A stretch of DNA of 64,000 nucleotides, taken from positions 25,296,001 to 25,360,000 of the forward strand of contig OX597815.1 in assembly GCA_951406725.2 (NCBI GenBank). The letters are read 5' to 3'. The notes beneath the pieces were generated by a model, which made no database searches, had not been told where the DNA came from, and saw nothing but the letters and a program-made list of their open reading frames with translations. Shown here in pieces: positions 25,171 to 60,915 of the stretch. How positions within the stretch are numbered: position 1 is the stretch's first letter; each line of letters starts with the position of its first letter. This DNA is from Octopus vulgaris (lineage: Eukaryota). A program made the position numbers and the translations under genes.

Positions 25171-25308
25171 GGTAACAAAACTTCCGGGATTTAGCGCGCC
25201 AGAACTGAGACATTTGAAAGTAACCCCATTGTAATCGGTAGAACTATACACACGTCTAATTTAATGACAACTAGTGTATAGTTCTACAAATTATATTGAA
25301 TTGGAACG

Positions 25309-25375
25309 ATCGTACTGAAGAGTCCACGAACGAAGATTACAAGTAAATTCGTTGATGGTGAAATCGGTCTACGAT
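25309..25375 (+). ncRNA. Type-I hammerhead ribozyme motif (family 2) in a ~350-bp element ending at (TA)n
   Basis: ATCGTA-CTGAAGA-GTC..GGT-GAAAT-CG-GTC-TACGAT; perfect 6-bp stem I; host element ~25180-25535 is homologous to 41259-41610 (inverted). Confidence 0.65.
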
Positions 25376-25532
25376 TAATTCTTTATTTTGTATATTTTCA
25401 TCTGTCTTAATCGCTTATGTTCTGGTGTTTGCTGAATTTCTTTAGGGAACATTCTTTTCTTTGTGGTTAGATCGTAGGTGATCTTCTTCTAGCATATTGG
25501 ATGTCCACTTAGTGGTCATCCATATTATACGC

Positions 25533-25598
<66 letters not shown>

Positions 25599-25601
25599 CA
25601 C

Positions 25602-25798
25602 ACTTTTATTTGATTCAGTCATTTGACTGCGGCCATGCTGGAGCACCGCCTTTAGTCGAACAGACCGACCCTAGTACTTATTTTATCGGTCTCTTTTACC
25701 GAACCGCTAGTTTACGGGGACGTAAACACACCCGCATCGGTTGTCAAGCGATGTTGGGGAAGACAAACACAGACACAAAAAAATACACACACACACAT

Positions 25799-25830
<32 letters not shown>

Positions 25831-26362
25831 GTGTGTGTGTGTGTGTATTTTGTGTGTCTGTGTTTGTCTTCCCAACATCGCTTGCCAACCGATGCGGGTG
25901 TGTTTACGTCCCCGTAAACTAGCGGTTCGGTAAAAGAGACCGAGAAAATAAGTACTAAGGTCGATCTGTTCGACTAAAGGCGGTGCTCCAGCATGGCCGC
26001 ACTTTACTCGATTGCAGTTGATATAATGCCAGATTTACTTCTTCAATGGAAAGTGTATCGATCATGTGTTGCACTATCTCCTCCCAAGATGAAAAAGTTG
26101 AAAAGACTGAAACCGGTACTAAAATGTTCATGATAAAATTATTTTAGCATTTTCTACTTTGTCTTATTTTCCGGCTTTATATGCGCAGGAGTGGCTGTGT
26201 GGTAAGTAGTTTGCTTACTAGCCACATGGTTCCGGGTTCAGTCCCAGTGCGTGGCACCTGGGGCAAGTGTCTTTTACAATAGCTTCGGGCCGACCAAAGC
26301 CCTGTGAGTGGATTTGGTAGACGAAAACTGAAAGAAGCCTGTCGTGTGAAAGAAGCCTGTCG

Positions 26363-26423
<61 letters not shown>

Positions 26424-26586
26424 GACAGGCTTCTTTCAGTTTACGTCTACCAAATCCACTCACAGGGCTTTGGTCGGCCCGAAGCTATTGTAAAAAACAC
26501 TTGCCCCAGGTGCCACGCACTGGGACTGAACCCGGAACCACGTGGCTGGTAAGCAAACTACTTACCACACAGCCACTCCTGCGCAT
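25602..26586 (-). mobile_element. tRNA-derived SINE split by an inverted duplication at its (TA)n tract
   Basis: 3' half at 25602-25817, 5' half at 26420-26586; the interval is filled with inverted copies of both flanks. Confidence 0.85.
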
Positions 26587-26765
26587 ATAAAGCCGGAAAA
26601 TAAGACAAAGTAGAAAATGCTAAAATAATTTTATCATGAACATTTTAGTACCGGTTTCAGTCTTTTCAACTTTTTCATCTTGGGAGGAGATAGTGCAACA
26701 CATGATCGATACACTTTCCATTGAAGAAGTAAATCTGGCATTATATCAACTGCAATCGAGTAAAG
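25628..26765. repeat. Two abutting palindromes, 25628-26001 and 26002-26765, each centred on (TA)n
   Basis: Direct base-by-base complementarity of the arms, with a few substitutions and indels. Confidence 0.95.
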
Positions 26766-28540
26766 CCTCTGGATTGGACAGTATTCTTGTTGAAATTCTG
26801 AAAACAGGTGGAGATCATATTTCATTTGAAATTCATAGCCGGATAACTCGTATTTGGAACAAATCTTCAGTGCCACAGGAATAGATAAATGGCATTCTTA
26901 TCTCTAAGTATATAAGGGTAAGAATCCAAAATCAGTGCGTGGTAATTCTAGACGGATAACTCTCCTGGCACATACCGGGAAGATACTTTTAAGGAACGGT
27001 TAGATCGTCTCGTTGAAAATGCATGTTCATATGTGATTCCCGAAAAACAGTGTGCTTTGAGACCCGAGCGAGGAACAATAGACATGATATTTTCTGCGAG
27101 GCAGGTTCAGGAGAAATACTTAGAGGAGGAACAAATGCTACTTATACCAGGTCTTCATAGATTTAACTAAGGCATTTGACACACGGTAAACAGGGAGGCG
27201 CTGTGGATTGTTTTGTGTAAACTTGGTTGCCCAATATACTTTGTGAGCATCTTTAAGGAACTGTACGCAAACATGAAAGCTCAGGTAGTCTTTAATGGTG
27301 AGCTGTCTCACGAATTTTCGGTGGACAACGGTGTCAAACAGGGAGATATTCCTGTCCCTACACTTTTTTCTATTTACATTGTTGCATTGCTTTGATACGC
27401 TTTTAAGGATTGCAACATGGGAATCGGAATCATTTTGGGCTCACAATTATTATTAGGAAAACCAAAGTAATGTTTACTTCCGCGCCAGGACAAACATATT
27501 CTGAACCAAACATTTTTATGAATGGAACAAGGTTAGAAGTCATTGATACTTTTGTTTACCTTGGAAGCACACTGTCAAGAGATGGTGGTCTTGATGTAGA
27601 GATATGCTATCAAATAAGGAAGGGAATTGTTGCATGTGGAAAGCTTGAAAAGCGAGTATGGGTATCTTGCAGACAAAAATCAGTGTGTATAAAACATGCG
27701 TATTGACTGCACTTCTTTATTTGAGTGAGACATAGACCACTTATAAGTGTCATATGGAAATTCTGGAGAGATTTCATCAAGTGCTTCAGACGTATCTTGG
27801 GAGTCAAGTTGGAATGTTTCATACCAGATACAGAAGTTTTGCGAATGGCACGTTGTAACTCAATTGAACAAAATGTCATCTTGGCTCAAATGAGACGGGC
27901 TAGACATGTTATTAGAATGTAAGATGAGCGATTTCTAAAGCGTCTTTTATAGGTGAGCTCACCTCTGGTAAGTGACCACAACATAAACCGAGGAAAATGT
28001 ATAAAGACTGTGTGATGGAAAACTTGAAGAAACTAGATATGAACAAAAGTGATTGGGAAACTAATGCTCTGGATCGGAACGAGTCGAGAGATGCTGCTAG
28101 GACTGGTTGCAACGCCTGGGAAGAAAAGATGATTCAGAGCTCTGAGCTAAAAAGGGCCTGTCGGAAAGTAACAATTGGAACTTAAATCAACAGAGAATGT
28201 TGGATATACATTGTGTGTAATCGTATTCTGTCGTCAAAAGCAGGATGCGTGAATCATATGAAGTCACTTGGAAATCGAAATGCCCAGGTGGGTAATAATC
28301 TTGAACCCCAACCGCCTCTTACAATTTGTGTCAAGACATATGCTAGTTCACAAAAACATTCCTTCAGCATCAGATTCCAAAGGGCAAAGATGTAGAAGAA
28401 ATTTGAATAATATCTGTTACCTGTCAGTCAGCAGCTGGTCTTAAAAGTCATCTTTAAGGTTCATCAACAGATGGATTGTACTGTGTGATGGGCTGTGTGT
28501 GTTGATGGGACGGCTATCATATGTCAAGATGAAGCAATCA
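26590..28540 (+). mobile_element. Decayed RTE-clade LINE (RT and C-terminal C2H2-like finger)
   Basis: KASGLDSI..EILKTGG; DLTKAFDTVNREALW; GVKQGDIPVPTLFSIY; FVYLGSTLS; C..CNRILSSKAGCVNHMKS. Confidence 0.85.
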
Positions 28541-37033: not shown

Positions 37034-37450
37034 GAAGGCGACGAGCTGGCAGAAACGTTAGCACGCCGGGCGAAATGCTTTGCGGTATTTCGTCTGCCGC
37101 TCCGTTCTGAGTTCAAATTCCGCCGAGGTCGACTTTACCTTTCATCCTTTCGGGGTCGATTAAATAAGTACCAGTTACGCACTGGAGTCGATATAATCGA
37201 CTTAATCCGTTTGTCTGTCCTTGTTTATCCTCTCTGTGTTTAGCCCCTTGTGGGTAGTAAAGAAATAGGTATTTCGTCTGCCGCTACGTTCTGAGTTCAA
37301 ATTCTGCCGAGGTCGACTTTGCCTTTCATCCTTTCGGGGTCGATTAAATAAGTACCAGTTACGCACTGGAGTCGATATAATCGACTTAATCCGTTTGTCT
37401 GTCCTTGTTTATCCTCTCTGTGTTTAGCCCCTTGTGAGTAGTAAAGAAAT
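37034..37450 (+). mobile_element. SINE (Meta-domain-like) with tandemly duplicated 182-bp body
   Basis: Unit 37086-37267 repeated at 37268-37450; TAAATAAGTACCAG motif; 16-bp TSD TGGTATTTCCACACTT (37018-37033, 37451-37466). Confidence 0.85.
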
Positions 37451-37499
37451 TGGTATTTCCACACTTATAGAGTTGGAAGCAAATCACTTCCTGCATTCT

Positions 37500-41150: not shown

Positions 41151-41794
<644 letters not shown>

Positions 41795-43541: not shown

Positions 43542-43622
43542 AAATTGTTTTCTTATATCAGAGTAATAAGGCGTTTCAATAGAACATCTTTACCCCCGGG
43601 AATTAGCGGGTACATCAACTAG

Positions 43623-43673
<51 letters not shown>

Positions 43674-43778
43674 ATATATATATATATATATATATACTAG
43701 CTGGTGTACCCAGTAATACCCGGGGGGTAAAGATGTTCTATTGAAACGCCTTATTACTCTGATATAAGAAAACAATTT
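43542..43778. repeat. Inverted repeat (~83-bp arms of a Helitron 3' end) around a TA/TG microsatellite
   Basis: AAATTGTTTTCTTATATCAGAGTAATAAGGCG..CTAGTA vs TACTAG..CGCCTTATTACTCTGATATAAGAAAACAATTT. Confidence 0.85.
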
Positions 43779-55226: not shown

Positions 55227-55682
55227 CCGTTGCCAGCGTCGCCTGGCCCCCGTGCCGGTGGCACGTAAAAAAAAAACACCATCCGTTCGTGGCCGTTTGC
55301 CAGACTCGTCTGGCACCACCATCCGTTCATGACCGTTGCCAGCGCCGCCCCGACTGGCCTCGTGCAGGTGGCACGTAAAAAGCACCATCCATTCGTGGCC
55401 GTTGCTAGCCTCGCCTGGCTCCGTGCCGGTGGCACGTAAAAAGCACCATCCGTCCGTGGCCGTTTGCCAGCTCCGTCTGGCACCTGTGCGGGTAGCACAT
55501 AAAAAGCACCCACTACACTCACGGAGTGGTTGGCGTTAGGAAGGGCATCCAGCCGTAGAAACACTGCCAGATCAGACTGGGCCTGATGCAGCCTTCTGGC
55601 TTCACAGACCCCAGTTGAACCGTCCAACCCATGCTAGCATGGAAAACGGACGCTAAATGATGATGATGATGATGATGATGAT
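55227..55682 (+). mobile_element. 5'-truncated RTE 3' UTR insertion with ~60-bp internal tandem units and an 80-bp TSD
   Basis: (GAT)n tail; GGTGGCACGTAAAAAGCACC units; identical direct repeats 55147-55226 and 55683-55762. Confidence 0.9.
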
Positions 55683-58599: not shown

Positions 58600-58958
58600 G
58601 GTGGCTGGCACATAAAAAGCACCATCTGAACATGGCCGATGCCAGCGCCACCTCGACTGGCTTCTGTGCCGGTGGCACATAAAAAGCACCATCTGAACAT
58701 GGCCGATGGCAGCGCCGCCTTGACTGGCTTCCGTGCCGGTGGCACGTTAAAAGCACCAACCGATTGTGGCTGATGCCAGACTCCCCTGGCACATAAAAAG
58801 CACCCACTACACTCGCGGAGTGGTTGGCGTTAGGAAGGGCATCCAGCTGTAGAAACACTGCCAGATCAGACTGGAGCCTGGTGCAGCCCCTGGCTTCCCA
58901 GACCCCGGTCGAACCGTCCAACCCGTGCTAGCGCGGAAAACGGACGTTAAACGATGAT
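58600..58958 (+). mobile_element. RTE 3' UTR fragment with tandem units
   Basis: Same 3' end as 55227-55682. Confidence 0.8.
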
Positions 58959-60644: not shown

Positions 60645-60915
60645 ATAAGCTGTTGAGGAGATATCATAAGCTGTTGAGGAGATATCATAAGCTGTTGAGG
60701 AGATATCATAAGCTGTTGAGGAGATATCATAAGCTGTTGAGGAGATATCATAAGCTGTTGAGGAGATATCATAAGCTGTTGAGGAGATATCATAAGCTGC
60801 TGAGGAGATATCATAAGCTGTTGAGGAGATATCATAAGCTGTTGAGGAGATATCATAAGCTGTTGAGGAGATATCATAAGCTGCTGAGGAGATATCATAA
60901 GCTGTTGAGGAGATA
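60645..60915. repeat. 21-bp minisatellite (ATAAGCTGTTGAGGAGATATC), about 13 units
   Basis: Near-perfect tandem array; two units carry CTGCTG. Confidence 0.95.

What the first reader, a model, noticed from the sequence alone, without database searches (positions are those of the whole stretch)
25628..26765. A-(TA)n-A'-B'-(TA)n-B: locus structure equal to a ~0.6-kb circle of itself re-integrated backwards at the (TA)n tract
Seen: the ancestral state is SINE 3' half (A), (TA)n, then SINE 5' half plus LINE (B). The extra ~590 bp consist of the reverse complement of A up to 26001, joined without microhomology (GCCGCA|CTTTAC) to the reverse complement of B. This is a circular permutation of the inverted A-(TA)n-B segment. 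The arms share private features (a SINE internal deletion, the SINE/LINE junction) yet differ by several substitutions, arguing for a real, aged event. Inference: either an excised microDNA circle recombined into the self-complementary (TA)n in inverted orientation, or two fold-backs at a TA hairpin plus one jump occurred during repair. Every copy of this abundant SINE carries (TA)n, so it may seed palindromes genome-wide.
Basis: partly seen in the sequence, partly recalled or inferred. Interest (0 to 1): 0.75.

Follow-up and report, generated by a model that had tools for sequence, protein, structure and literature searches.

The report
Double fold-back scar at TA repeat
In this assembly a short jumping-gene copy carries two back-to-back mirror duplications around its TA repeat, likely the scar of a DNA break whose two ends each folded back and copied themselves before rejoining; mostly smaller and one-sided mirror copies sit at the same repeat elsewhere in the genome, but no sequencing read yet confirms this particular one.

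Summary
The A-(TA)n-A'|B'-(TA)n-B layout is in the assembly exactly as described, with a blunt junction and locally copied arms. A re-integrated circle is not needed. A break in the (TA)n tract, snap-back synthesis at both ends and end-joining gives the same sequence in one event. The genome holds 29 further fold-backs at this repeat's tract (control 0). Most are one-sided with arms of 10-57 nt, too small for circles; one (L024) is a two-sided miniature. The tract is enriched about 4-9-fold over two other sites in the repeat, but events are rare (about 2 per 10,000 motif copies, a lower bound). The junction was not seen in 8 public runs; two appear to carry the unduplicated allele. So this copy is unconfirmed and probably polymorphic or private, and the arm differences may be allelic rather than a sign of age. 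[quoted passage not shown]

The parts
25599..25627 (-). 3' tail of the SINE-like repeat, not duplicated
25628..25817 (-). A: 3' half of the SINE-like repeat with a private internal deletion and its CA-rich stretch (resident arm, continuous with the left flank)
25818..25829 (.). T1: (TA)6, tip of the first palindrome
25830..26001 (+). A': inverted copy of A, about 172 nt; 4 substitutions, 1-nt indel, shorter microsatellite
26001..26002 (.). A'|B' junction, blunt, no shared letters
   Evidence: not seen in public runs
26002..26364 (+). B': inverted copy of B, about 363 nt (flank beyond the SINE 26002-26182; SINE 5' half 26183-26346)
26329..26365 (+). 18-nt direct re-copy of the SINE stretch next to the tract, private to B'
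26365..26420 (.). T2: (TA)28 with one interruption, tip of the second palindrome
26421..26765 (-). B: SINE 5' half (26421-26584) plus 181 nt of flank (resident arm, continuous with the right flank)
26624..28185 (+). Decayed LINE-like reverse transcriptase remnant into which B runs; frames broken by stops
   Evidence: fragmented frames; RVT_1, E 0.0021, below the curated cut-off, 1 of 5 pieces

Best explanation
This is a two-sided local inverted duplication centred on the SINE's (TA)n tract, likely left when a double-strand break in that tract was repaired after both ends had folded back and copied their own flanks. Shown: layout, blunt junction, local origin of both arms, extension beyond the SINE into flank, and a family of similar fold-backs at the same tract. 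Inferred steps: (1) the self-complementary tract breaks, for example by cruciform cleavage; (2) the left end's 3' TA pairs with itself and is extended about 170 nt into A, giving A-T-A'; (3) the right end's 3' TA does the same on the other strand for about 360 nt, slipping once (18-nt re-copy), giving B'-T-B; (4) the hairpins unwind and the new ends are joined bluntly. Hairpin-capped ends opened far from the tip would give the same product and are counted here. The event happened in DNA after insertion, because B' includes 181 nt of non-SINE flank. It is probably polymorphic or private and has no sign of function.
For: One event explains both palindromes, the doubled tract and the single new junction. 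29 fold-backs at this tract genome-wide, reversed-pattern control 0; a private variant is mirrored in 27 of 29 (Fisher p 6e-5). Per motif copy the tract site gives 29/172,607 against 12/276,523 and 5/264,194 at two other SINE sites (denominators extrapolated from 1.59 Mb). Of the 29, most are one-sided with 10-57 nt from centre to arm end, two have long arms running into flank (L022 about 400 nt; L256 about 155 nt, read by eye), and L024 is two-sided (53 + 44 nt, 4-nt microhomology). 3 of the 4 long or two-sided events (window, L022, L256) have a direct re-copy within 90 nt of the tract, against 0 of 139 ordinary copies, as repeated priming would give. The unduplicated allele appears in other samples: X17 has a 267-nt contig unbroken across B's end; in X3 the pieces at 26002-26050 and 26050-26114 have equal depth, 57.5 and 57.4. 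Non-majority letters fall on resident (3) and inverted (5) arms, one site on both. Literature passages: foldback synthesis at one end plus NHEJ capture in yeast (PMC11724301); snap-back and loop-out SD-MMEJ (PMC5728401); cruciform cleavage at TA repeats (PMC13645644).
Against: No read or contig crossing the junction in 8 runs; only 2 of them visibly cover B's end, the tables are cut, and the one raw-read run laid 5 reads. Arms of 170 and 360 nt are far longer than the mostly 5-34 bp yeast foldbacks or the 30-nt SD-MMEJ range in the passages read. Only 1 other two-sided case among 29. In the unbiased 1.59-Mb sample 11 of 1951 TA blocks scored against 0 of 1440 other blocks (p 0.004), but 4 are repeat-family palindromes and 3 are weak, leaving about 4, which is not significant alone; loose random centres also scored 10 of 3180. 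All 8 substitutions lie in SINE sequence, none in 181 nt of flank (p 0.03), which simple ageing does not predict.
Confidence: 0.55

Rival explanations
1. Replication template switching without a two-ended break: three polymerase switches in one pass, or two successive one-sided fold-backs at the tract.
For: One-sided events dominate the class; reverse-oriented short-range switches leave perfect inverted repeats and favour AT-rich DNA (PMC7954356 passages).
Against: A'B' is not one contiguous reverse-complement stretch, so the four-point model does not cover it; a jump of about 570 nt without microhomology is needed. Arm divergence does not differ between A/A' and B/B' (4/151 vs 4/345, p 0.25), though the test is weak.
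Confidence: 0.15
2. Assembly or polishing artefact: a chimeric molecule or a flip at the self-complementary tracts, with arm differences supplied by the two haplotypes or by mis-mapped SINE reads.
For: Junction not seen in 8 runs; unduplicated allele in X17 and apparently X3. Differences confined to SINE sequence. B' matches X1 and X3 contigs with 0 differences over 84 and 49+65 letters, so an old fixed event is unlikely.
Against: Short-armed members of the class fit inside single reads and several carry arm mismatches (L013 and L249, 4 each); L024 has the same two-sided form with microhomology. The 18-nt re-copy and the blunt junction would also need explaining. 5 of 8 substitutions are transitions.
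Confidence: 0.13
3. Head-to-tail tandem duplication of A-T-B, followed by inversion between the two (TA)n tracts, which are direct and inverted repeats at once.
For: Gives exactly this sequence with a blunt B|A junction (logic); direct re-copies that include tract exist (L022, L256).
Against: Needs two events; 0 of 139 ordinary copies carry a short direct re-copy; L019, L247 and L250 have an inverted arm with no second TA tract to invert at.
Confidence: 0.1
4. One reading: a 0.6-kb circle excised from A-T-B on a sister or homologue recombined back into the tract in inverted orientation.
For: The insert is a circular permutation of the inverted segment; circle-mediated duplications are described in human (PMC7188851, abstract and section 6). 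An inter-homologue donor would explain allele-like arm differences.
Against: Most class members have inserts under about 70 nt, below what duplex DNA readily circularises (own knowledge), and L024's is about 130 nt; some lack a second tract. The human cases read are 20-130 kb and sit in other regions. A circle should also re-enter in direct orientation or at other TA tracts; the junction was found only here (40 of 488 candidates scored).
Confidence: 0.07

Closest known systems
Local foldback inverted insertions at double-strand breaks (yeast; PMC11724301, passages)
   Same: A broken end folds back, is extended, unwinds and is joined to the other end with 0-5 bp microhomology, leaving a local inverted duplication.
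   Different: Described as one-ended and mostly 5-34 bp; here both ends, 170 and 360 nt, primed on a (TA)n tract.
Synthesis-dependent MMEJ, snap-back and loop-out classes (Drosophila; PMC5728401, passages)
   Same: Inverted and direct re-copies of break-adjacent sequence, apparent blunt joins, several rounds of priming.
   Different: Structures form within about 30 nt of the break; a junction-spanning repeat here is only a 6-mer found twice nearby, which chance can give.
Short-range template switching, four-point model (great apes; PMC7954356, passages)
   Same: Local reverse-complement copies making perfect inverted repeats; fits the one-sided class.
   Different: One contiguous inverted fragment and poly(dA:dT) context; the two-sided form needs an extra switch.
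Cruciform breakage at TA repeats repaired by MMEJ (human cancer ecDNA; PMC13645644, passages)
   Same: Supplies the likely break and the TA microhomology.
   Different: Somatic; flanking inverted duplications were not in the passages read.
eccDNA-mediated duplication (PMC7188851, abstract and section 6)
   Same: Circularly permuted copy.
   Different: 20-130 kb copies in other regions, not at the donor's own microsatellite.
Inverted Penelope-type insertions in TA repeats (earlier AI notes on this genome, unchecked)
   Same: Head-to-head arms bounded by TA tracts.
   Different: Those arms are one repeat family with recurrent ends; here the arms copy a SINE plus flank and end at arbitrary points.

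Membership tests
Local foldback inverted duplication at a break | Inverted copy of the immediately adjacent flank, closer to it than to any other copy | tested here: met
Local foldback inverted duplication at a break | Self-complementary primer at the fold point | tested here: met
   both hairpin tips lie in TA tracts
Local foldback inverted duplication at a break | End-joining junction with 0-5 bp microhomology | tested here: met
   0 nt here; 4 nt in L024
Local foldback inverted duplication at a break | One-ended and short (mostly 5-34 bp) | tested here: not met
   two-ended, 172 and 363 nt; met by most of the 29 other sites
Local foldback inverted duplication at a break | Dependence on polymerase delta or theta and end-joining factors | not testable with these tools
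   needs genetics
SD-MMEJ | Repeat motif spanning the junction, templated near the break | tested here: inconclusive
   one 6-mer at 25601 and 26712, no 7-mer
eccDNA-mediated duplication | Insert is a circular permutation of a donor segment | tested here: met
eccDNA-mediated duplication | Copy at another location, or a free circle with the same junction | tested here: not met
   junction only at this place among 40 scored of 488 candidates; free circles not testable
Four-point template switch | Single contiguous reverse-complement fragment | tested here: not met
   A'B' is discontinuous
Penelope-type inverted insertion | Both arms from one element, with family-fixed ends | tested here: not met
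   arms are a SINE half and a SINE half plus flank, broken mid-element
Named octopus SINE families (OR1 and others) | Match to the published consensus, tRNA-derived head | not tested
   no library available; the SINE label rests on size, copy number (203 copies of the 5' half in 1.59 Mb) and recall; no Rfam family reached its gathering score

The most novel reading that the evidence does not exclude
A SINE with some 350,000 copies carries a built-in breakable, self-priming (TA)n, and in this animal's germ line breaks there are healed by long, iterative snap-back synthesis at one or both ends. This is a repair mode with arms ten times longer than in yeast or fly assays, it writes new perfect hairpins into the genome from unique flank, and its scars give a countable natural record of both-end foldback repair and a possible source of new double-stranded RNA.
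Probability: 0.3. Interest if true: 0.6.

Novelty: new variant of a known kind. Interest (0 to 1): 0.38.

Why it matters
If real, it shows the two-ended version of foldback repair preserved in a germ-line genome, with a ready comparison set: every SINE copy is a matched substrate, so arm lengths, one- versus two-sided ratio and junction types can be counted. It also warns that 'circular permutation' alone does not show a circular intermediate when the target is self-complementary. The single locus is non-coding debris with no sign of function.

Tried and rejected
Rfam: 50 matches, all below gathering score, driven by the hairpin and TA content; rejected. DNA searches across either tract mostly returned ordinary copies because the query is its own mirror; 4 of 57 loci showed a central palindrome and none was a clean two-sided case. 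A 3'-half pattern gave 1 site, control 1: uninformative, because that side's centre is too long for the pattern. First unbiased count of 11 of 1951 was cut after inspection: 4 rows dropped as repeat-family palindromes (L072-7988, L131, L160, L198), 3 as weak (L116, L136, L203). L021 is 1 of the 29 pattern sites that does not lie in this SINE. Return-junction microhomology in one-sided events was not used, since any terminal T or A can be read as part of the tract. X4, X16 and X18 have no depth at 26748-26781: no evidence either way. An RNA-templated origin was rejected because the two arms need templates of opposite sense and B' includes flank. A-to-I hyper-editing: not seen. Transcription of the locus was not tested.

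Full report
Observation. Two palindromes abut: 25628-26001 around (TA)6 at 25818-25829 and 26002-26765 around a 56-nt TA tract at 26365-26420. Global alignment shows 4 substitutions and a 1-nt indel between A and A' outside the microsatellite, and 4 substitutions plus an 18-nt tandem copy between B and B'. The A'|B' junction joins the mirror of 25628 to the mirror of 26765 with no shared letters. Among 40 scored of 488 candidates only the window matches across it. The predicted single-strand fold is two long hairpins with TA at the tips.

Context. The window lies at G000:C2:25296001-25360000 in a 2.8-Gb genome. It is probably an octopus; that rests on my recall of the repeat and on earlier AI notes, and was not tested. 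The host repeat is about 400 nt long, with a 5' half, a TA/TG tract and a 3' half. 203 copies of the 5' half reach the tract in 1.59 Mb of evenly spaced stretches, about 350,000 genome-wide by extrapolation. I call it a SINE from size, number and recall; it was not matched to a named family. B runs on into a decayed LINE-like remnant (RVT_1 at E 0.0021, under the cut-off). B' includes 181 nt of this flank, so the duplication happened in DNA after the SINE inserted.

The arms are local copies. 8 of 8 rare letters of A and 8 of 11 of B are shared by the inverted arm, and other copies in the sample are at most 87% and 93% identical. Against the family majority, non-majority letters sit on the resident arm at 3 sites, on the inverted arm at 5 and on both at 1; the three resident letters are common minority letters in the family, so their polarity is less sure.

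Other samples. 20 of 24 listed runs hold part of the region; I laid 8. On A'+B' (X1 whole, X3 about 80%, X15 about 76%, X24 about 3% read) no listed piece or joint crosses 26001|26002. A junction contig would be about 60 letters, longer than the shortest pieces listed, but the table shows only 24 of over 73,000 pieces. X3 has a 251-nt contig with 49 letters on 26002-26050 and 202 letters outside the stretch (not shown, presumably the right flank), at the same depth as the next piece (57.5, 57.4), as a single-copy B would give. X1 has an 80-nt contig on 25897-25974 with 2 differences from A', the number expected for the unduplicated ancestral state, though the places are not shown. On B plus right flank X17 has a 267-nt contig unbroken across 26717-26983 with 3 differences; X4, X16 and X18 have no depth there; no loose end at 26765 is listed (33 rows not shown). 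So the A-T-B allele exists and the duplication is unconfirmed. Arm divergence (8 in about 500 nt) is near the distance to X17 (7 in about 380), while X1 and X3 match B' without a difference over 84 and 114 letters. An old fixed event is therefore unlikely; an old polymorphism, error-prone copying or a haplotype mosaic in the assembly all remain possible.

The class. A short pattern for a mirror copy of the SINE stretch just before the tract found 29 sites, control 0; only tracts up to 19 nt can match, so this is a lower bound. All 29 were fetched; 28 lie in the SINE. A private C/T variant is mirrored in 27 of 29 (p 6e-5), so each was copied locally. Most are one-sided, 10-57 nt from centre to arm end, and resume in or just after the tract. 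L022 has an arm of about 400 nt into flank, L256 about 155 nt, and L024 is a two-sided miniature (53 + 44 nt, 4-nt microhomology). The same pattern design at two other SINE sites gave 12 (control 3) and 5 (control 7). Per motif copy that is 1.7e-4 against 4.3e-5 and 1.9e-5. Three of the four long or two-sided events have a direct re-copy within 90 nt of the tract against 0 of 139 ordinary copies; L024's re-copy lies 326 nt away. Selection for short tracts may inflate this. In the unbiased sample 11 of 1951 TA blocks and 0 of 1440 other dinucleotide blocks scored, but after an earlier AI note pointed to Penelope-type palindromes I found 4 to be repeat-family palindromes with other copies or recurrent ends and 3 weak; about 4 remain, which is not significant alone.

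Mechanism. Four histories give this sequence: a circle re-entering the tract backwards; tandem duplication then inversion between the tracts; serial template switches; and a break in the tract with snap-back at both ends. The last is one event, predicts the one-sided forms as the commoner outcome, allows arms of any length, and fits the repeated re-priming. Circles do not fit inserts under about 70 nt (duplex stiffness; own knowledge), and inversion between tracts does not fit L019, L247 and L250, which lack a second tract. The break, the priming and the enzymes are inferred. Hairpin-capped ends opened off-centre, as in P-nucleotide formation and some transposon footprints (recalled), would look the same.

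Literature. PMC11724301 (listing and passages): foldback synthesis at one end, NHEJ capture at the other, mostly 5-34 bp, 0-5 bp microhomology. PMC5728401 (passages): snap-back and loop-out SD-MMEJ within about 30 nt. PMC7954356 (passages): four-point template switching. PMC13645644 (passages): nuclease cleavage of TA cruciforms and MMEJ. PMC7188851 (abstract and section 6): circle-mediated duplications of 20-130 kb. PMC13282606 and PMC4824008 (passages): SINE abundance and names in octopus; nothing on palindromes in the passages shown. PMC3907307, PMC7467729 and PMC4689423 were seen as listings only. Searches listed no paper on TA-seeded fold-backs in this SINE or on a two-ended form; the library lacks most subscription papers and no supplements were read.

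Verdict. It is a new variant of a known kind, unconfirmed by reads, with no sign of function. Interest 0.38.

Noticed in passing
window 43542-43778: A second TA-centred fold-back in the same window, arms about 80 nt of sequence with no other copy in the sample, several mismatches, no second TA tract.
   Followed up: partly
L053:1213-2131 (G000:C3:128832634-128835736): A full SINE head-to-head with a 5'-truncated inverted copy of itself, TA at the centre and at both ends; a Penelope-like insertion layout for this SINE.
   Followed up: no
L024:1025-1847 (G000:C9:92560001-92563032): Two-sided miniature with further re-copies and a mini fold-back upstream; at least four priming steps.
   Followed up: yes
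L022:1080-1896; L256:700-1000: Long one-sided fold-backs running into flank, each with a direct re-copy beside the tract.
   Followed up: yes
L010:1150-1420: Direct re-copy plus two 7-nt fold-backs within one SINE tract.
   Followed up: partly
L072:7750-8297; L160:5012-5506; L198:6340-7598; L131:4160-4884: Near-perfect palindromes of repeat families bounded by TA tracts, some with ends recurring in other copies; probably element insertions.
   Followed up: partly
L171:9047-9470: Complex inverted and direct re-copies of a SINE 3' end between TA tracts.
   Followed up: no
window 26585-26680: Stretch between SINE and LINE remnant that matches a further repeat (3 hits at about 83% in the sample; very deep in public contigs).
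   Followed up: no
window 37084-37459; 55317-55510; 58606-58779; 60645-60915: Tandem arrays of period 184, 61, 67 and 21.
   Followed up: no
window 25300-25530 and about 41250-41500: Two copies of a repeat, 92% identical over 231 nt, in opposite orientation.
   Followed up: no
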